DNA of 33,079 nucleotides from a virus (Duplodnaviria > Heunggongvirae > Uroviricota > Caudoviricetes): the IMG/VR virus record IMGVR_UViG_2698536401_000003; one strand, 5' to 3'. Both the position numbers and the translations under genes were made by a program. Below are positions 2,620 through 31,203 of this stretch, piece after piece. Every line of letters starts with the position of its first letter. Within the stretch, counting starts at the first letter, position 1. The notes beneath the pieces were generated by a model, which was given only the letters and a program-made list of their open reading frames with translations, did not search any database and was not told the DNA's origin.

Positions 2620-2996
2620 GGTGTCAGAGGAACCTGTTCACCGTTCTGAACATCACCGGTGGAGACCGGCATACCACTCAGGGATAAAACCAGACTGCCC
2701 CCGTCGCCAAGCGCGTCATAAGACCAGGTGTTTTTTACATCCTCATTCAGCGCATCCACATCCTGTGACGGGTCCGTATTCCACATTGACCGGGAAACCA
2801 GCCAGGCGTTGATATCCATCCCCATACGCAGAAATTCAATCTGACGTTCAGCCACCGGCATGGCATCATCCAAGGCGTCAAACTCAGCCGTCCGTTTCTG
2901 GACAAACGACAGATATTCCACCCGCTGCAGCCCGGACAGTTCTGTCATAACCACAGACTGATCACCGTAATTAAATGTGTCCTGTTTCAGAAACAT
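2607..2996 (-). CDS. G: Tail assembly chaperone G
   Basis: ORF 2607..3017 trimmed to the internal ATG at 2996 (MFLKQDTF..., lambda G starts MFLKTESF) preceded by a GGAGAAGG Shine-Dalgarno; lies between V and T as in lambda. Confidence 0.8.
   Translation of the reverse strand: MFLKQDTFNYGDQSVVMTELSGLQRVEYLSFVQKRTAEFDALDDAMPVAERQIEFLRMGMDINAWLVSRSMWNTDPSQDVDALNEDVKNTWSYDALGDGGSLVLSLSGMPVSTGDVQNGEQVPLTPEKS
2613..2619 (-). promoter_or_regulatory. Candidate -1 frameshift slippery site (GGAAAAG) for the G-T fusion
   Basis: Minus-strand sequence ACACCGGAAAAGTCCTGA at the end of G; it is the only X-XXY-YYZ-like heptamer in the 28-nt G/T overlap. It deviates from the canonical lambda GGGAAAG. Confidence 0.4.
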
Positions 2997-3056
2997 AACC
3001 TTCTCCGCAAACAACAAAAAAACCCCGGCATACCGGGGTACAAACAGACCGTCTGA

Positions 3057-3797
3057 TTAACCACCATTAACGGTAATACTGGCCACTGCGACCTGTGCGC
3101 CACCCGCTGTCATCCCGACAATCGAGGTGCTTCCCGCTTTCACACCTTTCACCGTGGCCACCATGCCACTCAGTGTAACCGTGGCGATCTCAGGAGAGGA
3201 TGACGCCACACTCACCGTTTTATCAGATGCATCTTCCGGTACTGTGCTGAATGTCAGCGTCGTCGTTGCCCCCACCCTGACACTGGCAGATGCCGGTGCC
3301 ACCGTCAGACCGGTCACGCTAACAAGCCCGGTGCCTTCCTCTGCCAGATACGGACGTCCCACACCGCTGATTTTCACAGTGCGGGTCATCACCTCTTTAG
3401 AGGTAACAGTTTTCCCCAGCGAGCTCAGCCAGCCACGGAAAACATCAACAGTGCCGTTGGGATATTTGATACGAAACGCACAGACTTCACCAGAGTCGAA
3501 CAACTGAACCAGTTTTTTCTGCCCGCTGTCACCCGGACGCCAGGCCAGCGTCGCCGAAGTATCACCGACGGATTTTTGCCCCTGGGTTGTCGTTTTCCAG
3601 TCAGCATTTTCATCATCGAGATAATCGTCATCTTCCGCATCTGCAGTCATTTCGCCCGGCTGTAAATCCTTCACCATCGCAAGACGCAGCCAGTCAGTAT
3701 CTGACAACGGAGCCGCAAAGGCGTCCCCTTTGCCGGTATACATCCAGAACGTCGTCCCCGCGCCCTTCGTTTTTTCCAGTGGATTCGGTGTTGGCAT
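3057..3797 (-). CDS. V: Major tail protein V with C-terminal Ig-like domain
   Basis: ORF 3057..3815; start placed at the ATG at 3797 (MPTPNPLEKTKGAGTT, lambda V MPVPNPTMPVKGAGTT) with an AGGAG SD, giving 246 aa as in lambda V. Recalled similarity runs along the whole protein. Confidence 0.9.
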   Translation of the reverse strand: MPTPNPLEKTKGAGTTFWMYTGKGDAFAAPLSDTDWLRLAMVKDLQPGEMTADAEDDDYLDDENADWKTTTQGQKSVGDTSATLAWRPGDSGQKKLVQLFDSGEVCAFRIKYPNGTVDVFRGWLSSLGKTVTSKEVMTRTVKISGVGRPYLAEEGTGLVSVTGLTVAPASASVRVGATTTLTFSTVPEDASDKTVSVASSSPEIATVTLSGMVATVKGVKAGSTSIVGMTAGGAQVAVASITVNGG

Positions 3798-4213: not shown

Positions 4214-4788
4214 CGGGTCAGATATAACCTCAGTTGTTGTTTCAGGGCATACCCCAGCTGTTTCGGCATCTCGTTATCAATGACGCTTTTACGGGCATCC
4301 TCAAATGCCAGTGTCAGCGGACCGGACAGCGGAATTTTCACCACATCAATGGGGTAACGATTTTTGCCGTCAATACGCCGCATCACATGCCAGCGACCGT
4401 TCGCCAGTTGCTGAATAAAGGCATTCCGGAAGAGATATTTTCCCACTTTCAGCACACTGCCACGGTAATGTAACCTGCCACCACGCCGGGTCATTCTGAC
4501 CTGTGCAGCCCCCAGTTTTATGGCGGGCAGGTTGCCGCGATTTACGCGAATACGGGCATACATTTTTCCGTCCGGGCTGGCTTTAAGTACCCTGACACGC
4601 TCACGCACCAGTTTCAGGGGGATCCCCTTCACCTGGTTATCACCAGCCACAGTATTCTGCGCGACCAGCCGTGTGGCGACAGAGACAACCTTTGCCGCCA
4701 CACGGTTCATCGCCCATGCGCTGGCCTGTGGCACCATACGGGTATCAAGGATGTCCAGATTACGGATGGCGTTTTCAAGACCTTTCAT
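4210..4788 (-). CDS. Z: Tail completion protein Z
   Basis: ORF 4210..4902 trimmed to the internal ATG at 4788 (MKGLENAIRNLDILDTRMVPQASAWA, matching the lambda Z N-terminus); 192 aa. Confidence 0.8.
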   Translation of the reverse strand: MKGLENAIRNLDILDTRMVPQASAWAMNRVAAKVVSVATRLVAQNTVAGDNQVKGIPLKLVRERVRVLKASPDGKMYARIRVNRGNLPAIKLGAAQVRMTRRGGRLHYRGSVLKVGKYLFRNAFIQQLANGRWHVMRRIDGKNRYPIDVVKIPLSGPLTLAFEDARKSVIDNEMPKQLGYALKQQLRLYLTR

Positions 4789-5593: not shown

Positions 5594-6622
5594 TTATTTC
5601 ACCTGAACCACCACAAATGCGTCCGGATCCGGCAACACCATCAACGGCGCAGACTGCGTCATGGTATATTCGCACCCCGGGTCCCCCACCTCTAACCAGT
5701 GTTTCGGATAACGAATTGCAGAGGTGATCCCTTCACTCAGCGCCTGGTTATCCTGGATTGCGCCATAACAACGGACACCCTCCACCTGAGTGTTTCCAAG
5801 AATCAGTGTGCCTTCCGGCAGATAACGCTGCTCATCCCCGTTTTCATCAACATACGTTGTTTTCGCCACCATGATGGCCAGATCACCGTAATAACCTTTA
5901 AAAGAAACCACGGACCCCAGATCTTTCAGCGCGGTTTCCAGTTCAGATTTTGAGCCACGGCGGGTATCCAGTTTTTCACGAAACAGTTTAAAACCGTTCA
6001 GCATACGCCAGACAGTACCGTCCATAATCGCAATATTGATGGTACCGGAAGCAAAATCGCAGTACGCATCCAGATCATGCGTCGGATCAAAGGTGTCAGT
6101 ATTCTGTTTTGACCATTCGCGTCCCCCTGCCTGCGTAATGTTATTGGCGGCAGAACGTCCAAAATCCACTTCCACCGTCTCAAACTGTTCACCGCTCATG
6201 GTGTACTTACCCTGCAGAACAGCGCTGACCGCCTGCATTTCTTCCACCTGCACAATCGCCTGTTCTTCCTGTTTCAGGTTGTCAGTCAGAATACGCAGGC
6301 GACGGTAGGCCGGGTCATTAAGACGGGCCGGATCTTCCCCCGGAAGACGCTCCACCGCCTGCTGATAATCCAGCCGGTGTTTTGGTTTAACATAGCCGGG
6401 GCGTAACACGCGGGTTTCACCACCACGACTGCGCAGTACCTTACCTGACACAACCGGAGACACATATGCCGCAACCGGTGTTTTTCCGGTGATTTTATCC
6501 AGCATCACTTCCTGAGTATGGAAAGTGACCGTACGACGAAAAAACAGCTCCAGAAACAGCGCACGGAATTTCACTTTCTGCTCGGTGTAGCCGAGCAACT
6601 GACGCGTGGTAAATAACCCCAT
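5594..6622 (-). CDS. E: Major capsid protein E
   Basis: ORF 5594..6661 trimmed to the ATG at 6622 (MGLFTTRQLLGYTEQKVKF), giving 342 aa; recalled similarity to lambda gpE along the full length (YVSPVVSGKVLRSRGG, PGYVKPKH, SAPLMVLPDPD). Confidence 0.9.
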   Translation of the reverse strand: MGLFTTRQLLGYTEQKVKFRALFLELFFRRTVTFHTQEVMLDKITGKTPVAAYVSPVVSGKVLRSRGGETRVLRPGYVKPKHRLDYQQAVERLPGEDPARLNDPAYRRLRILTDNLKQEEQAIVQVEEMQAVSAVLQGKYTMSGEQFETVEVDFGRSAANNITQAGGREWSKQNTDTFDPTHDLDAYCDFASGTINIAIMDGTVWRMLNGFKLFREKLDTRRGSKSELETALKDLGSVVSFKGYYGDLAIMVAKTTYVDENGDEQRYLPEGTLILGNTQVEGVRCYGAIQDNQALSEGITSAIRYPKHWLEVGDPGCEYTMTQSAPLMVLPDPDAFVVVQVK

Positions 6623-22126: not shown

Positions 22127-22282
22127 TTACTCCTCAGATTCGTAAGCTGTGAAGACAGCGACCTCCGTCTGGCCGGTTCGGATTCGTACCTCGCAGAGGT
22201 CTTTCCTCGTTACCAGTGCCGTCACTATGACGGTTAAACAGATGACGATCAGGGCGATTAACATCGCCTTTTGCTGCTTCAT
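22127..22282 (-). CDS. hok: Hok family type I toxin (host-killing membrane peptide)
   Basis: 51 aa MKQQKAMLIALIVICLTVIVTALVTRKDLCEVRIRTGQTEVAVFTAYESEE, near-identical to the chromosomal HokD/RelF-type Hok peptide as recalled. Confidence 0.9.
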   Translation of the reverse strand: MKQQKAMLIALIVICLTVIVTALVTRKDLCEVRIRTGQTEVAVFTAYESEE

Positions 22283-22339
22283 AGCCTGCTTCTCCTTGCC
22301 TTTCGGCACGTAAGAGGCTAACCTACGTTTGTGTAGCAT
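22127..22339 (-). CDS. mok: Mok (modulator of killing) overlapping reading frame, in-frame N-terminal extension of hok
   Basis: 70-aa ORF starting 19 codons upstream of hok in the same frame, as in mokC/hokC-type loci. Confidence 0.65.
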   Translation of the reverse strand: MLHKRRLASYVPKGKEKQAMKQQKAMLIALIVICLTVIVTALVTRKDLCEVRIRTGQTEVAVFTAYESEE

Positions 22340-22400
22340 AGATTGGGCCTCAGATTAATGTTAAGCGTCTTGCCGGACGCGTAATGTTAACTGGGGCTTT
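22300..22400 (+). ncRNA. sok: Putative Sok antisense RNA region (approximate)
   Basis: Inferred from hok/mok locus architecture, where the antitoxin RNA is antisense to the mok start region. Candidate -35/-10 TTGCCT-17 bp-TAACCT on the plus strand near 22294-22322. The boundaries are not determined. Confidence 0.3.
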
Positions 22401-22620
22401 TCTCTGTCTGCCTTACAGTGGCATGCCCGAGGCAGACAGCCTCAAGCACCCGCAACAATCTTACCGACACCGATAAGAAAACGCTATTTTTTATTGCCAG
22501 AACCTTCTGCCCAGGCTAATGTATCCGCGTCAGAACGGCGCAATGCGCTCGCCTGAGATACGTTTACTTGTCATTGGTGGCAACAGATAACGGCAATTGT
22601 TGTTTCTGTTTGTTTCCTTC

Positions 22621-27360: not shown

Positions 27361-27474
27361 ACTTTACGATGGCACCGATAATTACAAATTTAATTTTAAT
27401 TTTCAACTTCTATTTGTAATGCCACTTATCAATTTTTTCTGTAGGATTGCAGGATTAGTTTTCGAGGGGTGGTG
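27361..27474. promoter_or_regulatory. Immunity-region intergenic operator/promoter region (OR-like)
   Basis: AT-rich 114-bp divergent intergenic region containing TTACAAATTTAATTTTAATTTT...ATTTGTAA inverted-repeat elements; a related motif recurs at 28636-28674. Confidence 0.5.
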
Positions 27475-27867
27475 ATGATCTTTGTAAAACGCCTTCAGCA
27501 GGTGTTGCAGGAATTGAATATAAACCAGTCAGAGCTGGGAAGACGTCTTGGTGTAAAACCCCAATCCGTGCAAGGTTGGTTGAAAGGCGTGATGCCAAGA
27601 ATGGATAAATTGGAAAAATTAGCAGAGCTCTCACAACATCCCGTCCATTGGTTCTTTATGGAAGAAGAAACTCTCGGCGATAAGATGGCTGTATCCAGTA
27701 ATGACAACCAACCGCAACTTACAGAACAACAACGAAAAATCATATCGCTTTTAGATGAGTTACCTCAAAGCGACGCAGAGCAGATCATTCGGGATATGGA
27801 GCAAAAACGCGATTTCTATAAACGCAAACTTGAAGAGTTACTGCGGCAGAAAAACAAAACTGCCTGA
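27475..27867 (+). CDS. CI-like prophage repressor (HTH XRE family; RacR-like position)
   Basis: ATG at 27475 after GAGGGG; HTH NQSELGRRLGVKPQSVQGW; divergent from the cro-like gene. Confidence 0.8.
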   Translation: MIFVKRLQQVLQELNINQSELGRRLGVKPQSVQGWLKGVMPRMDKLEKLAELSQHPVHWFFMEEETLGDKMAVSSNDNQPQLTEQQRKIISLLDELPQSDAEQIIRDMEQKRDFYKRKLEELLRQKNKTA

Positions 27868-27913: not shown

Positions 27914-28273
27914 TTATAATCCCACCAGGCTTTCCAAGGGGATACCAAATTGATTATGAAGACGGCGAATCATTGGTAACGTAAGGCTTCTGGTGCCATT
28001 CAACACCTCGTAAACCCGATTTTTTTTTCCAATTGCGGGTTCCAAATCTTTCACGGTCAGCCCCTGCTGTTCCATGCGAAATCTTATAGCTTCAATTGGG
28101 GATGGTGGCTCAATGGGATAATGTTTTTTTTCATATTCCGCTATTAGCAAACACATCACCTCAAAGAAATCCCCCTCAGGCGTGTTAATTTCCGGCTCAT
28201 TGTCGAACATGGGCTCAACAGCACGCAACGCGGCTTCATAATCTTGCTCTGTACGAATAGGTTTGATGTTCAT
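27914..28273 (-). CDS. higA: HigA-family antitoxin (HTH XRE)
   Basis: 119 aa; C-terminal HTH KNRVYEVLNGTRSLTLPMIRRLHNQFGIP, like HigA; start overlaps the higB stop. Confidence 0.75.
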   Translation of the reverse strand: MNIKPIRTEQDYEAALRAVEPMFDNEPEINTPEGDFFEVMCLLIAEYEKKHYPIEPPSPIEAIRFRMEQQGLTVKDLEPAIGKKNRVYEVLNGTRSLTLPMIRRLHNQFGIPLESLVGL

Positions 28274-28275
28274 GC

Positions 28276-28578
28276 TTACTCCGGTTCAATGGTATCAGCA
28301 TCAATGGCATCGTATTCCTTGTGGTTTCCGATGAATTTAACAAATACCCATCCTCGCTGATACGCAATTGCAACAATTAAACGGTAATGATTACCTTTTA
28401 TGTTGAATACCACGCGCCGGTTTTTCAATATACTGGCCGTTCGGTATTGTGCCTTAATGTCTGCCGGGCTTTTCCAGTCAGCCTTTGCTGCCTCATCCAC
28501 CCATGCCCTTAGCGGTTGTTCTGCATCGGGATTCTCCGCCCAAAAATCCCTAAGCGTTTTAACTGAGATGATCTTCAT
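28276..28578 (-). CDS. higB: HigB-family toxin (RelE/ParE superfamily mRNA interferase)
   Basis: 100 aa; NHYRLIVAIAYQRGWVFVKFIGNHKEYD resembles the HigB core (xxxRvvamvffesqkcyIrevmtHkEYD); toxin-first order typical of higBA. Confidence 0.8.
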   Translation of the reverse strand: MKIISVKTLRDFWAENPDAEQPLRAWVDEAAKADWKSPADIKAQYRTASILKNRRVVFNIKGNHYRLIVAIAYQRGWVFVKFIGNHKEYDAIDADTIEPE

Positions 28579-28619
28579 AACTGTATGGTAGTCCCATTTC
28601 GGGACTAATGCAATCGGCC

Positions 28620-28690
28620 TCAGCTACAAATTTAATGATAAATATATTGACCAATTAAATTTTAATTTGTAGATTATACTCACCAACCAA
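28620..28690. promoter_or_regulatory. OL-like operator/promoter region between higB and the plus-strand early-left genes
   Basis: CTACAAATTTAATGATAAATATATTGACCAATTAAATTTTAATTTGTAG contains an inverted repeat sharing the ACAAATTTAAT motif with the OR-like region; includes a TTGACC -35-like hexamer. Confidence 0.4.
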
Positions 28691-28853
28691 CTCCCCGCCC
28701 CACAGAACGCAGGGCAATACTTCGAGTTACCAGGCAGTGGTCAGGGGTTAAGTAGCCAGCCCGAGGCGTAAGAACATGACGGCAGGGTTCAACTTTAACT
28801 ATGCAGCAGGTTTTTGTTCCGCTACCCCGGCGTTAAGGGGAAATGAGGTCAAC

Positions 28854-29009
28854 ATGGATACTATCGATCTTGGCAACAACGAATCTCTGGTATACGGCGT
28901 GTTTCCCAACCAGGACGGCACATTCACCGCGATGACGTATACCAAAAGCAAAACGTTTAAAACCGAAACTGGCGCGCGTCGCTGGCTGGAAAGAAACTCA
29001 GGCGAGTGA
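28854..29009 (+). CDS. Small hypothetical protein (51 aa; YdaF-like by size and position)
   Basis: ORF 28776..29009 trimmed to the ATG at 28854 (GAGG SD); stop overlaps the start of the next small gene (GTGATATGG). Confidence 0.55.
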   Translation: MDTIDLGNNESLVYGVFPNQDGTFTAMTYTKSKTFKTETGARRWLERNSGE

Positions 29010-29010
29010 T

Positions 29011-29139
29011 ATGGATTTCGACACAATCATGGAAAAGGCTTACGAAGAATACTTCGAAGGCCTTGCCGAAGGCGAAGAAGCTCTCAGCTTCAGTGAGTTT
29101 AAACAGGCGCTTTCCAGCTCGGCAAAATCTAACGGCTGA
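29011..29139 (+). CDS. Small acidic hypothetical protein (42 aa; YdaG-like by size and position)
   Basis: ATG at 29011 translationally coupled to the upstream gene; MDFDTIMEKAYEEYFEGLAEGEEALSFSEFKQALSSSAKSNG. Preferred over the overlapping basic 69-aa ORF 29006..29215. Confidence 0.5.
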   Translation: MDFDTIMEKAYEEYFEGLAEGEEALSFSEFKQALSSSAKSNG

Positions 29140-29168
29140 TAAGCGAAACAGCACCGCGAGGAATCAGT

Positions 29169-29387
29169 ATGCAGAAACGAGAACCCGTCATCATCGCGCC
29201 AGACTATACCGATGATGAACTTTATGAGTGGATGCGCCAGAAAATTAATGCAGCGCAGGATCTGAAATGGGCCAATGAAGCAAGGGCTAAGCAGGCTGAA
29301 AATCTGTCCGCTCTGGAGCAGGATATCACCAGGCTGGAAAAAGCAGCGGCATTAAGCATTGCCAGAATGATTACATACCCACGTTAA
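29169..29387 (+). CDS. Hypothetical protein (72 aa)
   Basis: ATG preceded by GCGAGGAATCAGT; part of the plus-strand early-left gene string. Confidence 0.55.
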   Translation: MQKREPVIIAPDYTDDELYEWMRQKINAAQDLKWANEARAKQAENLSALEQDITRLEKAAALSIARMITYPR

Positions 29388-29408
29388 TAGCTAACCAACG
29401 AGGCTATA

Positions 29409-30047
29409 ATGGAATTTAAAGATTTACCAATATCAATACAGGAAATGGTCGCTGATGTGATTCGCTCGCAACTGGCGCGGAACCCAATGGTATTAGTAGA
29501 TAAAGTGTTCATCAGAAATTTATCAAATCATGTCCGCAATTCTTTTACCGGACTGTATTCAGATTCGTTCACAAACAATCATTGTGTAGAAAATAAAGCA
29601 AAGCCCATTGCAGAAACGATAACGCAAAACATCAATACGAAACAAACCGAAGAAGAAATTGACCAGTTTACCCGAGATACTGGCTTAAAATGCAGGAAAG
29701 AAAAATCGCCATATGCGGGGAATATGTTTGTTTATGACAACCTTATCCGAATTCGTGGCGAAATTCCGACTGAATACCTAGCAAGAATTCACCAGGCATT
29801 ACTTAAAAATCTGGAAACGGAAGTATTTGATGGCAATACCAACGGCTCCTTCGTGGTGTCAACTCTAGCAAAAGAGTGGGATACAGATAATCGCTGGAAT
29901 GTTGCCACATGGTTATTCAGCAACAAAGCTGCTGCCCTGGAAGCTGCGGCCTGTATTTGCGACCTGCTAAGGACAGACCGCAAATACAACCTGGATGTGT
30001 ATAGCTATATTTATGCTGAACACTATCCGCTATGGATTAACTGGTAA
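29409..30047 (+). CDS. Hypothetical protein (212 aa) in a relatively AT-rich block
   Basis: ATG preceded by ACGAGG; no motif I recognise; convergent with the following minus-strand gene, no spacer. Confidence 0.6.
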   Translation: MEFKDLPISIQEMVADVIRSQLARNPMVLVDKVFIRNLSNHVRNSFTGLYSDSFTNNHCVENKAKPIAETITQNINTKQTEEEIDQFTRDTGLKCRKEKSPYAGNMFVYDNLIRIRGEIPTEYLARIHQALLKNLETEVFDGNTNGSFVVSTLAKEWDTDNRWNVATWLFSNKAAALEAAACICDLLRTDRKYNLDVYSYIYAEHYPLWINW

Positions 30048-30257
30048 TTACAAAGCTGCACCAGCAGGGCCACGGCGACCAGCGCCACGATTGTAATCAA
30101 TGATGCCATTATAAAGCGCATTATTTAATTTATCGTCGAATGCCGATTCTGTGAGCCCTAGCTCTGAATGAGTTTTTAATAACCCTGATTGCCTGAGTTG
30201 ATTAACCAGGCATTCAATCTGTTTTTCAATAATCGGATGTATTGGCTTGTTTGGCAT
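30048..30257 (-). CDS. Hypothetical small protein (69 aa), transcribed against the early-left operon
   Basis: ORF 30048..30329 trimmed to the ATG at 30257, preceded by a strong SD AATGGAGGATAAA. Confidence 0.55.
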   Translation of the reverse strand: MPNKPIHPIIEKQIECLVNQLRQSGLLKTHSELGLTESAFDDKLNNALYNGIIDYNRGAGRRGPAGAAL

Positions 30258-30649
30258 TTTATCCTCCATTGAAGTTACTGGTTGAGAATGGAGACCACAC
30301 GTGACAGCGTGTTGTCGTGCGCCGGACACGGATAAGAATCCGGCACTGACAGTTTACTGAAAGAATATATCCCTGAAAAGTCAGGGCATAACGCGAAAGC
30401 GCACGGCGGAGGTGTCTTTTCCTTAGAAGGCTTGTCGTTAGATTTCTTCGATTGTGTGCTTCCGGTTGTGGCACTCCGCGAAATGGCGCGGCGGTAAGTA
30501 TGGCGGGGTTATTCCTTACCCCCATTGGTGGCACCGGGTTGTCAGGTTGACCATACGCCTGAGTGACAACCCCGCTACAACACTCCATGTTGATTTGTAC
30601 CTTTGGCGGCATCAGTTTCATTGCTGGCTGATGTCCGCCCTTTTTAAAG

Positions 30650-30809
30650 TGAATTTTGTGATGCGGTGAATGCGGCTGAGCGCACGCGGAACAGTTAAAA
30701 AGCGATTAGTTCCCCCGTATCGGGTGTTTATGGGTTTCCCTGTATCCGGCGTTAATTGTTAACTGGTTAACGTCACCTGGAGGCACCAGGCACCGCATCA
30801 CAAAATTCA
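30650..30809. repeat. Perfect 19-bp inverted repeat pair flanking a 122-bp segment
   Basis: TGAATTTTGTGATGCGGTG (30650-30668) and its exact reverse complement CACCGCATCACAAAATTCA (30791-30809); the downstream arm ends about 18 nt before an SD (GAGGA) and the ATG at 30827. Confidence 0.7.
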
Positions 30810-30826
30810 TTGTTGAGGACGCGATA

Positions 30827-31009
30827 ATGGAAACGTTATTACCAAACGTTAATACGTCTGAAGGTTGTTTTGAAATTGGTGTCAAAATCAGTAACCCAGT
30901 ATTTACTGAAGATGCCATTAATAAGAGAAAACACGAACGGGAGCTATTAAATCAAATATGCATTGTTTCAATGCTGGCCCGTTTACGCCTGATGCAAAAA
31001 GGACGCTGA
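30827..31009 (+). CDS. Hypothetical small protein (60 aa)
   Basis: ATG preceded by GAGGACGCGATA; stop is 2 nt before the next ATG. Confidence 0.5.
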   Translation: METLLPNVNTSEGCFEIGVKISNPVFTEDAINKRKHERELLNQICIVSMLARLRLMQKGR

Positions 31010-31011
31010 CA

Positions 31012-31203
31012 ATGAATACAGCATTTGCACTCGTTCTGACAGTTTTTCTTAATACAGGCGAACCAGTCGATCTTGTTATTGGTATACATGACTCAATGAA
31101 AGAATGCATGGCTGCCGCAGCGGAACAGAAAATTCCCGGCAACTGTTATCCGGTTGATAAAGTTATTCGCATGGACAATAACGAAATCCCGGCAGGTCTT
31201 TAA
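31012..31203 (+). CDS. Hypothetical small protein (63 aa) with N-terminal hydrophobic segment
   Basis: ORF 30958..31203 trimmed to the ATG at 31012 (AAGGA SD); MNTAFALVLTVFLNTGEPV... looks like a signal peptide or TM helix. Confidence 0.5.
   Translation: MNTAFALVLTVFLNTGEPVDLVIGIHDSMKECMAAAAEQKIPGNCYPVDKVIRMDNNEIPAGL

What the first reader, a model, noticed from the sequence alone, without database searches (positions are those of the whole stretch)
29409..30329. Convergent pair in the early-left operon: unknown 212-aa protein and an antisense small gene with a strong SD
The 212-aa ORF sits in a relatively AT-rich stretch and meets a minus-strand 69-aa gene (30048..30257, SD AATGGAGGATAAA) tail to tail with no spacer or terminator. 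A gene transcribed against the early-left operon implies an independent promoter in 30258-30330 and possible transcriptional interference. Early-left regions of lambdoid phages often hold exclusion and anti-defence genes, but I recognise neither protein.
Basis: inference. Interest (0 to 1): 0.5.

Follow-up and report, generated by a model that had tools for sequence, protein, structure and literature searches.

The report
Convergent accessory gene pair in prophage
Two real but uncharacterised genes face each other inside the early operon of an E. coli-type prophage, at a spot where related prophages carry different gene pairs of the same layout; what they do is still unknown.

Summary
A 212-aa ORF (29409-30047, +) and a 69-aa ORF (30048-30257, -) meet stop-to-stop with no terminator, and both are under purifying selection. 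They sit between ydfC and a divergent DicF/dicB in a Qin/Rac-type (dicBF) early operon. Phage Tritos lacks the roughly 0.9-kb insert.

The pair occurs in about 10% of complete E. coli genomes (547 of 5426), including O157:H7, and in Salmonella elements. Distant relatives (36-40% and 52-56% identity) keep the same arrangement.

The large protein has an N-terminal domain shared with many early-operon proteins and a conserved C-terminal domain of unknown fold. The small protein is a helical hairpin with a GRRGPAG tail. No named family, defence model, solved structure or paper matches either.

Related prophages carry other pairs at this site. In phage phiP27 that site is near-consensus.

The small gene was never found without the large one. 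The large gene persists in a lineage where the small gene is deleted.

Best reading: a convergent switch, probably a cognate protein pair, function unproven.

The parts
28647..28675 (+). Promoter-like site (TTGACC-17-TAGATT) upstream of ydfA. It is the candidate promoter of the early (dicBF-type) operon that carries the 212-aa gene.
   Evidence: Consensus scan. It was the only + strand hit in 28500-31100. Function is inferred.
28776..29387 (+). Operon genes upstream of the insert: ydfA-like DUF1391 (28776-29009), ydfB (29011-29139) and ydfC-like (29169-29387).
   Evidence: Pfam DUF1391 at 6e-28. RefSeq and phage annotation of homologous loci.
29406..30315 (.). Extent of the insert relative to phage Tritos, which goes from ydfC to the shared leader and hairpin without these two genes.
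   Evidence: BLAST of the region against the loci, Tritos sequence and alignment.
29409..30047 (+). 212-aa gene (phrog_2151, 'Ybl81' in some records). Residues 1 to about 50 form a helical N-terminal domain shared with many early-operon proteins. Residues of about 48-98 form a poorly conserved linker. Residues of about 99-212 form the conserved C-terminal domain (29703-30044).
30048..30257 (-). 69-aa gene (phrog_4274). The predicted protein is a two-helix hairpin (helices 8-24 and 37-62) with a disordered C-terminal tail carrying the conserved GRRGPAG motif.
30258..30344 (-). 87-nt conserved leader of the small gene. It holds the SD GGAGG (30267-30263), a possible anti-SD arm TCTCCATT (30294-30287), a middle hairpin (30312-30297) and a 5' hairpin GCCGGA..TCCGGC (30344-30321).
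   Evidence: The leader is shared by small genes of unrelated families and found in phiP27. The hairpin is stronger on the minus-strand RNA. Alignment fold shows conserved stems with G.U pairs but no compensatory changes.
30351..30379 (-). Predicted promoter of the small gene: -35 TTTTCA (30379-30374), a 17-nt spacer, and -10 TAAACT (30356-30351), 6 nt before the hairpin. It matches 8 of 12 consensus positions, so it is weak.
   Evidence: Read from the sequence. The equivalent position in phiP27 holds TTGAGA-17-GATAAT, a 10-of-12 match. Salmonella contexts have TGnTATAAC or TGnTATACC at the same distance. It is below the scan threshold in the window.
30592..30640 (+). Divergent DicF-like small RNA with its terminator hairpin (30608-30635), downstream in the same operon.
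   Evidence: Rfam DicF at 38.7 bits against a gathering score of 48, E = 1e-6. Terminator-like site.
30827..31203 (+). dicB (30827-31009) and a ydfD-like DUF1482 gene (30958-31203), the downstream operon genes.
   Evidence: Pfam DicB at 1e-37. Pfam DUF1482 at 1e-22.

Best explanation
This is an accessory two-gene cassette in a hypervariable slot of the early operon of a Qin/Rac-type lambdoid prophage. The slot lies between ydfA/ydfC and the DicF/DicB (or KilS/KilR) cell-division inhibitors.

Shown. Both ORFs are real, conserved genes. The 212-aa gene is in sense orientation with short gaps and its own SD, so it is read as part of the operon. The 69-aa gene is antisense and carries a conserved, structured 87-nt leader. 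No terminator separates the two genes.

Inferred mechanism. In the lysogen the operon is repressed, and the small gene is transcribed from its own weak sigma-70 promoter (-10 at 30356-30351). That transcript starts at a 5' hairpin and runs on, antisense, into the large gene. After derepression, operon transcription produces the 212-aa protein and overruns the small gene's promoter. The two products would therefore be expressed in opposite states.

I further infer that the small helical protein and the C-terminal domain of the large protein are a cognate pair, with one modulating or antagonising the other. Two directions fit. The small protein could be a lysogen-expressed factor that the early protein neutralises on induction. 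Alternatively it could be a safety inhibitor of an early host-directed effector. The molecular target is unknown.
For: Context. DUF1391, DicB, DUF1482, a sub-threshold DicF and homologous annotated prophages place it in a dicBF-type operon. Tritos lacks the insert.

Coding. dN/dS is 0.15-0.27 for the small gene and 0.11-0.17 for the C-terminal domain.

Spread. 547 of 5426 complete E. coli genomes carry at least 80% of the pair. Hosts include O157:H7 in a Rac-type kil context and Salmonella integrative elements.

Co-inheritance. Distant C-domain relatives (36-40% identity, different N-terminus, behind a Cox-type gene) still have a convergent 64-69-aa gene. That gene is 52-56% identical to the window's and keeps the GRRGPAG tail.

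Asymmetry. The large gene was adjacent in all 14 distinct places that carry the small gene. The large gene stays intact in a lineage where the small ORF is internally deleted.

Leader and promoter. The same hairpin and leader precede small ORFs of unrelated families. The hairpin is stronger on the minus-strand RNA. phiP27 has a 10-of-12 promoter 6 nt upstream of it.

No terminator lies between the genes. K-12 Rac holds antisense sieB in the same slot.
Against: There is no expression data of any kind. The window's predicted promoter matches only 8 of 12 consensus positions and was not picked up by the scan.

The leader stems show no compensatory changes, so the structure and any SD sequestration are unproven. 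The anti-SD stretch folds no better than shuffled sequence (z about 0).

Co-inheritance of two abutting genes can be explained by physical linkage alone. Persistence of the large gene without the small one shows the partnership is not obligatory.

Structure models give no function. The large-protein model is poor (pLDDT 58), the fold matches are generic, and the small protein has no match. No protein-protein prediction could be run.
Confidence: 0.42

Rival explanations
1. The two genes are independent accessory genes that share a recombination hot spot. The large gene is an early-lytic accessory protein. The small gene is an unrelated lysogen-expressed gene, as sieB is in Rac. They travel together only because they abut.
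For: The slot holds many combinations. The C1-type large gene occurs with two unrelated small genes or with none. The leader drives an unrelated 35-aa ORF in phiP27 with no N-domain gene nearby. N-domain genes in Stx phages have the hairpin but no small ORF. The large gene survives deletion of the small one. Rac has a lone antisense sieB at this slot.
Against: The C-terminal domain and this particular small protein stay together down to 36-40% and 52-56% identity. They do so in a different element with a different N-terminus and different flanks. The small gene was never found apart from the large gene.
Confidence: 0.3
2. It is a toxin-antitoxin or abortive-infection module. The 212-aa protein is the toxin or effector, and the 69-aa protein is its antidote, made constitutively from the opposite strand as with immunity genes of pore-forming colicins.
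For: The layout is a convergent small gene with its own promoter opposite an inducible larger gene. Large proteins at the slot share an N-terminus and differ in their C-terminal parts, and each small-gene family occurs with only one of those types. A HigBA-like pair lies nearby in the same antisense orientation.
Against: A widespread lineage keeps the large ORF intact while the small ORF is deleted, which is unexpected if the small protein were an essential antidote. Nothing matches toxin, antitoxin or defence models. The genes are not a co-directional operon.
Confidence: 0.12
3. The functional product of the minus strand is RNA. A long antisense transcript would damp leaky expression of the large gene or of the toxic downstream dicF/dicB. 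The 69-aa ORF would be secondary to that role.
For: No terminator lies between the genes. The leader and 5' hairpin are conserved across unrelated small ORFs, and in Tritos they are present without any ORF. The operon downstream encodes cell-division inhibitors.
Against: The 69-aa ORF is under clear purifying selection at the protein level (dN/dS 0.15-0.27). It keeps its sequence and the GRRGPAG motif at 52-56% identity. An RNA-only role would not conserve the reading frame.
Confidence: 0.1
4. It is a type I toxin locus. The 32-aa hydrophobic ORF (30023-30121, minus strand, another frame) would be the real product.
For: The peptide MRFIMASLITIVALVAVALLVQLCNYQLIHSG looks like a membrane toxin. 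It stays open and hydrophobic in close relatives.
Against: In the distant loci L012 and L014 that frame is neither open from a start codon nor hydrophobic, whereas the 69-aa frame and its GRRGPAG motif are conserved. The hydrophobic frame is a by-product of the G+C-rich codons of the tail.
Confidence: 0.02

Closest known systems
sieB of the Rac prophage (E. coli K-12)
   Same: It occupies the same slot, after the DUF1391 gene ydaF and before the small RNA KilS and the division inhibitor kilR. Its orientation is likewise antisense to the early operon. From general knowledge, sieB is a prophage-expressed superinfection exclusion gene.
   Different: There is no sequence similarity: no Pfam or PHROG link. 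SieB in K-12 is about 162 aa. The 69-aa protein shows no long hydrophobic stretch and is modelled as a two-helix hairpin with a disordered tail. Rac has no sense-strand partner gene in the slot.
Immunity genes of pore-forming colicin operons (from general knowledge)
   Same: A small gene lies on the opposite strand next to an inducible larger gene and has its own promoter, so the small product is present before the large one is induced.
   Different: There is no homology. Toxicity of the 212-aa protein and binding by the small protein are untested. The large gene persists without the small one, which is unusual for a toxin-immunity pair.
P22 SieB/Esc self-protection logic (from general knowledge)
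   Same: The concept is that a prophage makes an exclusion factor and also a product that spares its own lytic growth. That concept fits the asymmetry seen here: the small gene is never without the large one, while the large gene occurs alone.
   Different: Esc is an in-frame product of sieB itself, not a convergent gene. Nothing here has been tested functionally.
Convergent-promoter switches and excludons, such as coliphage 186 pR/pL and Listeria long antisense RNAs (from general knowledge)
   Same: Convergent transcription units face each other with no terminator between them, so transcription of one should interfere with the other.
   Different: No RNA data exist for this locus. The window's antisense promoter is a weak consensus match.
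PHROG families phrog_2151 and phrog_4274
   Same: Both proteins match over their full length (5e-97 and 1.5e-41), so they are members.
   Different: Both families are listed as 'unknown function', so membership adds no mechanism.

Membership tests
dicBF (Qin/Rac-type) early operon of lambdoid prophages | ydfA/ydaF-type DUF1391 gene near the start of the operon | tested here: met
   Pfam DUF1391 at 6e-28 for 28776-29006.
dicBF (Qin/Rac-type) early operon of lambdoid prophages | DicB division-inhibitor gene followed by a ydfD-type DUF1482 gene | tested here: met
   Pfam DicB at 1e-37. Pfam DUF1482 at 1e-22.
dicBF (Qin/Rac-type) early operon of lambdoid prophages | DicF small RNA between ydfC and dicB | tested here: inconclusive
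   Rfam DicF scores 38.7 bits at 30592-30640, below the gathering score of 48, with E = 1e-6 and full model length. It was not found at the gathering threshold.
dicBF (Qin/Rac-type) early operon of lambdoid prophages | Xre-type repressor gene upstream, with a divergent cro/ydaS-ydaT side | tested here: met
   HTH_3 at 27469-27864. Homologous loci are annotated with YdaS/YdaT and Cro-type neighbours.
PHROG phrog_2151 (large protein) and phrog_4274 (small protein) | Full-length match to the family profile | tested here: met
   Residues 1-212 of 212 at 4.9e-97, and residues 1-69 of 69 at 1.5e-41.
Type II toxin-antitoxin system | Two co-directional, co-transcribed genes | tested here: not met
   The genes are convergent and meet stop-to-stop.
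Type II toxin-antitoxin system | The antitoxin cannot be lost while the toxin stays intact | tested here: not met
   The 211-aa 'WFKG' lineage keeps the large ORF while the small ORF is internally deleted.
Type II toxin-antitoxin system | Similarity to a known toxin or antitoxin family | tested here: not met
   No Pfam, NCBIfam, PADLOC or PDB sequence match.
Type I toxin-antitoxin system | Conserved small hydrophobic toxin ORF | tested here: not met
   The 32-aa hydrophobic frame is absent in L012 and L014, while the 69-aa frame is conserved there.
Type I toxin-antitoxin system | Antisense small RNA that controls the toxin mRNA | not testable with these tools
   This needs RNA data.
Known anti-phage defence systems (PADLOC-DB 2.0) | Match of either protein to a defence-system model | tested here: not met
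   The only hit is a chance-level PDC-S32 match at E = 0.007 and 14.5 bits. Distant relatives and the alternative slot proteins also have no hits, apart from the HTH region of P0167.
SieB-type superinfection exclusion | Homology to SieB | tested here: not met
   No Pfam or PHROG link to SieB.
SieB-type superinfection exclusion | Antisense, independently transcribed gene in the early operon of a prophage | tested here: inconclusive
   Orientation and slot agree with Rac sieB. Independent transcription is only predicted.
Convergent effector-immunity pair (colicin-like logic) | The large product is toxic and the small product binds and neutralises it | not testable with these tools
   No multimer prediction or experiment was available.

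The most novel reading that the evidence does not exclude
The pair may be one allele of an undescribed family of polymorphic 'convergent switch' cassettes in lambdoid prophages. A portable unit of promoter, 5' hairpin and leader would drive diverse small proteins in the lysogen. It would face an early-operon gene with a shared N-terminal domain and a swappable C-terminal domain. The small protein and the C-terminal domain would be cognate antagonists: either an exclusion factor with self-immunity, or an early effector with its inhibitor. Exchange within the shared ends would generate new specificities.
Probability: 0.2. Interest if true: 0.7.

Novelty: new variant of a known kind. Interest (0 to 1): 0.45.

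Why it matters
The cassette sits next to the toxic DicF/DicB or Kil genes in prophages carried by about a tenth of complete E. coli genomes, including O157:H7. Yet neither protein has a name, a recognisable fold or a paper. The same slot holds the exclusion gene sieB in K-12 Rac.

If the small proteins are lysogen-expressed factors, and the facing early proteins are their partners, the locus would be a compact source of new phage-phage or phage-host interaction genes. The shared hairpin and leader would give a simple sequence handle for finding more of them. If the two genes turn out to be independent, the result is still a useful map of a variable site in a much-studied operon.

Tried and rejected
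1. Family searches with Pfam, NCBIfam and PADLOC on both proteins gave nothing. Neither did searches on distant relatives and the alternative slot proteins. PHROG matches are all of unknown function.

2. PDB sequence-profile searches with three alignments gave only chance-level hits.

4. The model of the small protein (pLDDT 78) found no Foldseek match.

5. The exhaustive HMMER search found only one full-length cluster at 50% identity and two distant C-domain relatives. A profile search added a handful of Salmonella proteins.

6. A scan of GTDB representative genomes found no relative.

7. The type I toxin idea, based on the 32-aa hydrophobic ORF, was rejected.

8. The 120-aa minus-strand ORF 30259-30621 and the 93-aa GTG start were rejected as not conserved.

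9. A terminator at the gene junction was rejected. The terminator-like site at 29364-29347 on the minus strand has only a 4-5 bp stem and is unconvincing.

10. The hairpin is not a terminator on either strand, because no U-run follows it.

11. Literature searches for ybl81, RefSeq accessions, DUF1391, dicB operon antisense, sieB hotspots and prophage defence screens found nothing on these genes.

Full report
**What is at the coordinates**

The 212-aa ORF (29409-30047, + strand) and the 69-aa ORF (30048-30257, - strand) are present as described. The large ORF has GAGG 5 nt before its ATG and starts 21 nt after the stop of a ydfC-like gene. The small ORF has GGAGG (30267-30263) 5 nt before its ATG.

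The stop codons abut. No terminator-like site lies between the genes. The junction folds no better than shuffled sequence on either strand. GC drops to 0.38-0.39 in the first half of the large gene, against 0.45-0.49 in the flanks.

**Genomic setting**

The region is the early operon of a Qin/Rac-type lambdoid prophage. From left to right it contains:

- an Xre-type repressor gene (27469-27867);
- a promoter-like site (28647-28675);
- ydfA-like DUF1391, ydfB and a ydfC-like gene;
- the two genes of the finding;
- a divergent DicF-like RNA (30592-30640; 38.7 bits against a gathering score of 48);
- dicB and a DUF1482 gene.

These assignments rest. Phage Tritos and other phages run from ydfC to the region upstream of dicF without the two genes. 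Relative to them, the insert spans about 29406-30315.

**Are they genes?**

Yes. Against relatives that differ by dS of 0.07-0.9, dN/dS is 0.15-0.27 for the small gene. It is 0.11-0.17 for codons 96-212 of the large gene and 0.37-0.49 for its N-terminal part. Each protein matches a PHROG family of unknown function over its full length.

Two alternatives failed. The 93-aa GTG start and a 120-aa minus-strand ORF ending at the small gene's SD are interrupted in relatives. A 32-aa hydrophobic ORF in another frame (30023-30121) looked like a type I toxin and stays open in close relatives. It disappears in distant loci, where the 69-aa frame and its GRRGPAG tail are kept. It is therefore a frame by-product.

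**Distribution and linkage**

At least 80% of the pair is present in 547 of 5426 complete E. coli genomes. Carriers include O157:H7, where it lies between DUF1391 and kil in a Rac-type operon. They also include ETEC strains with dicB and Salmonella integrative elements. No isolated phage in the phage collection has either full protein.

An exhaustive HMMER search found one full-length cluster and two distant relatives of the C-terminal domain only. A profile search added a few Salmonella proteins. Those distant proteins are 36-40% identical in the C-terminal domain. They have an unrelated N-terminus and sit behind a Cox-type gene. A convergent 64-69-aa gene still follows them, 52-56% identical to the window's small protein and ending in GRRGPAG.

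The small gene had the large gene next to it in all 14 distinct places examined. The reverse does not hold. In a widespread lineage the large ORF is intact (211 aa, ending WFKG; some records call it ybl81). In that lineage the small ORF has lost all but its SD and last 14 or so codons. Within that lineage dN/dS of the C-terminal domain is 0.53, but it rests on few changes.

**The proteins**

The large protein has three parts:

- a helical N-terminal domain (about residues 1-50);
- a poorly conserved linker;
- a strongly conserved C-terminal domain (about residues 99-212), modelled as repeated strand-strand-helix units.

The N-terminal domain heads many small early-operon proteins with different C-terminal parts. 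The model is weak (pLDDT 58), and the fold matches are generic.

The small protein is modelled as a two-helix hairpin with a disordered tail (pLDDT 78). It has no structural match. Nothing in Pfam, NCBIfam, PADLOC or PDB sequences matches either protein. No paper was found.

**The slot is variable, and the small genes share a leader**

In 80 IMG/VR loci found with the N-terminal domain, plus the other loci, 91 of 95 N-domain ORFs are followed within 900 nt by the same hairpin, GCCGGA..TCCGGC.

Between the ORF and the hairpin there is usually a convergent small ORF. These belong to unrelated families of 69, 91, 73, 64, 61 and 77 aa. They meet the large gene stop-to-stop or overlap it by 11-33 nt. 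In 35 loci the hairpin follows the stop by only 30 nt and there is no small ORF.

All the small ORFs start about 55-60 nt downstream of the hairpin on the minus strand. The hairpin has two G.U pairs on the minus-strand RNA and is more stable there: -17.7 against -14.5 kcal/mol in the window. In L012 the z-scores are -4.4 against -1.1.

Phage phiP27 has the same hairpin, leader and SD in front of an unrelated 35-aa ORF, with no N-domain gene. A 10-of-12 sigma-70 match ends 6 nt before that hairpin.

At the same distance the window has TTTTCA-17-TAAACT (30379-30351), an 8-of-12 match that falls below the scan threshold. Two Salmonella contexts have extended -10-like motifs there. I therefore place the small gene's promoter upstream of the hairpin, not in 30258-30330.

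A stem between 30294-30287 and the SD region could mask the SD. Its arms are invariant while its loop varies. However, it shows no compensatory changes and no energy excess, so this remains a suggestion.

**How it most likely works**

The following is shown:

- a sense early gene and an antisense small gene, with no terminator between them;
- a conserved minus-strand leader;
- joint inheritance of the C-terminal domain and the small gene;
- the asymmetry of loss.

From this I infer that the two genes are expressed in opposite states. The small gene would be on in the lysogen. The large gene would be on after derepression, when operon transcription overruns the small gene's promoter.

I also infer that the two proteins are a cognate pair. 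The asymmetry fits a small factor that is only useful, or only tolerable, when the large protein is encoded. It does not fit an essential antidote.

Tight physical linkage could produce the co-inheritance without any interaction. For that reason I give the full explanation 0.42 and the 'independent accessory genes' rival 0.30.

**Comparison with known systems**

K-12 Rac carries the exclusion gene sieB, antisense, in exactly this slot. This is the closest known case in position and orientation, but there is no homology. Colicin-immunity layout, P22 SieB/Esc logic and convergent-promoter switches are functional analogies only. Tests for membership of type I TA, type II TA and known defence systems were not met.

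**Verdict**

The genes are common, conserved and uncharacterised. The modular slot with a shared leader appears undescribed in the literature I could search. I rate it a new variant of a known kind (accessory genes of the lambdoid early operon), with interest 0.45.

Noticed in passing
window 27914-28578 (- strand): A HigA-like (HTH_3) and HigB-like (Pfam HigB_toxin, 5e-33) pair lies between the repressor gene and the operon promoter, on the strand opposite to the repressor gene and the early operon. It matches PADLOC PD-Lambda-2_A (1e-39) and only the first 119 of 402 profile positions of PD-Lambda-2_B. The published system has a HigA-peptidase fusion and a third gene (bioRxiv 10.1101/2022.05.12.491691). 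This therefore looks like a plain HigBA pair, not the full system.
   Followed up: partly
window 30592-30640 and 30638-30859 (+ strand): A divergent DicF copy falls below Rfam's gathering score (38.7 against 48 bits). A sub-threshold STnc100-like stretch (37 against 47 bits) lies between it and dicB. At default thresholds this window would be annotated as lacking DicF.
   Followed up: partly
window 30321-30344; also L117 (phiP27) 2563-2586, L016 (ArgO145) about 2975-3000, L002 (Tritos) about 4455-4478: A conserved hairpin, GCCGGA-N12-TCCGGC followed by GCAC, marks the right end of the variable slot. It occurs in dicBF-type, Rac-type, Stx-phage, phiP27 and Salmonella contexts, with or without a small ORF behind it. 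It matches no Rfam family at E up to 10.
   Followed up: partly
window 30297-30312: The middle leader hairpin is ACACG-CTGTCA-CGTGT in the window and its closest relatives. It is ACACG-TGACAG-CGTGT in others such as L003. The 16-mer is therefore exactly inverted between variants.
   Followed up: no
window 30023-30121 (- strand): A 32-aa strongly hydrophobic ORF lies in another frame over the 3' end of the small gene. It stays open in close relatives but is lost in distant ones. I judged it a by-product of the G+C-rich GRRGPAG codons.
   Followed up: yes
L001 5401-6039 and L004 4011-4649 (closest RefSeq relatives of the window): RefSeq annotates the large gene as a pseudogene 'missing N-terminus', starting 123 nt in. 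The 212-aa ORF is in fact intact from its ATG. The cause is probably the unusual N-terminal allele that the window shares.
   Followed up: partly
L006-L009 (Salmonella) 5979-6500: A second cassette of the same design sits directly after the first. It has an N-domain gene (119 aa) and a convergent, overlapping 64-aa gene (phrog_4987) behind a second copy of the hairpin and leader.
   Followed up: partly
L098-L100 4800-5312 (- strand): In the lineage that lost the small gene, a further antisense gene of 170 aa lies just beyond the hairpin. It has CPKC...CLHC motifs that look like a zinc ribbon. It has no PADLOC match.
   Followed up: no
L097 (E. coli K-12 Rac) 2906-3660: In K-12 Rac the equivalent slot holds antisense sieB. 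The annotated small RNA KilS lies where DicF lies in the window.
   Followed up: partly
window 22277-22451 (- strand) and 16094-16165 (- strand): There is a full-length sok antitoxin RNA match (116 bits), which implies a hok/sok locus, and a tRNA gene elsewhere in the window.
   Followed up: no
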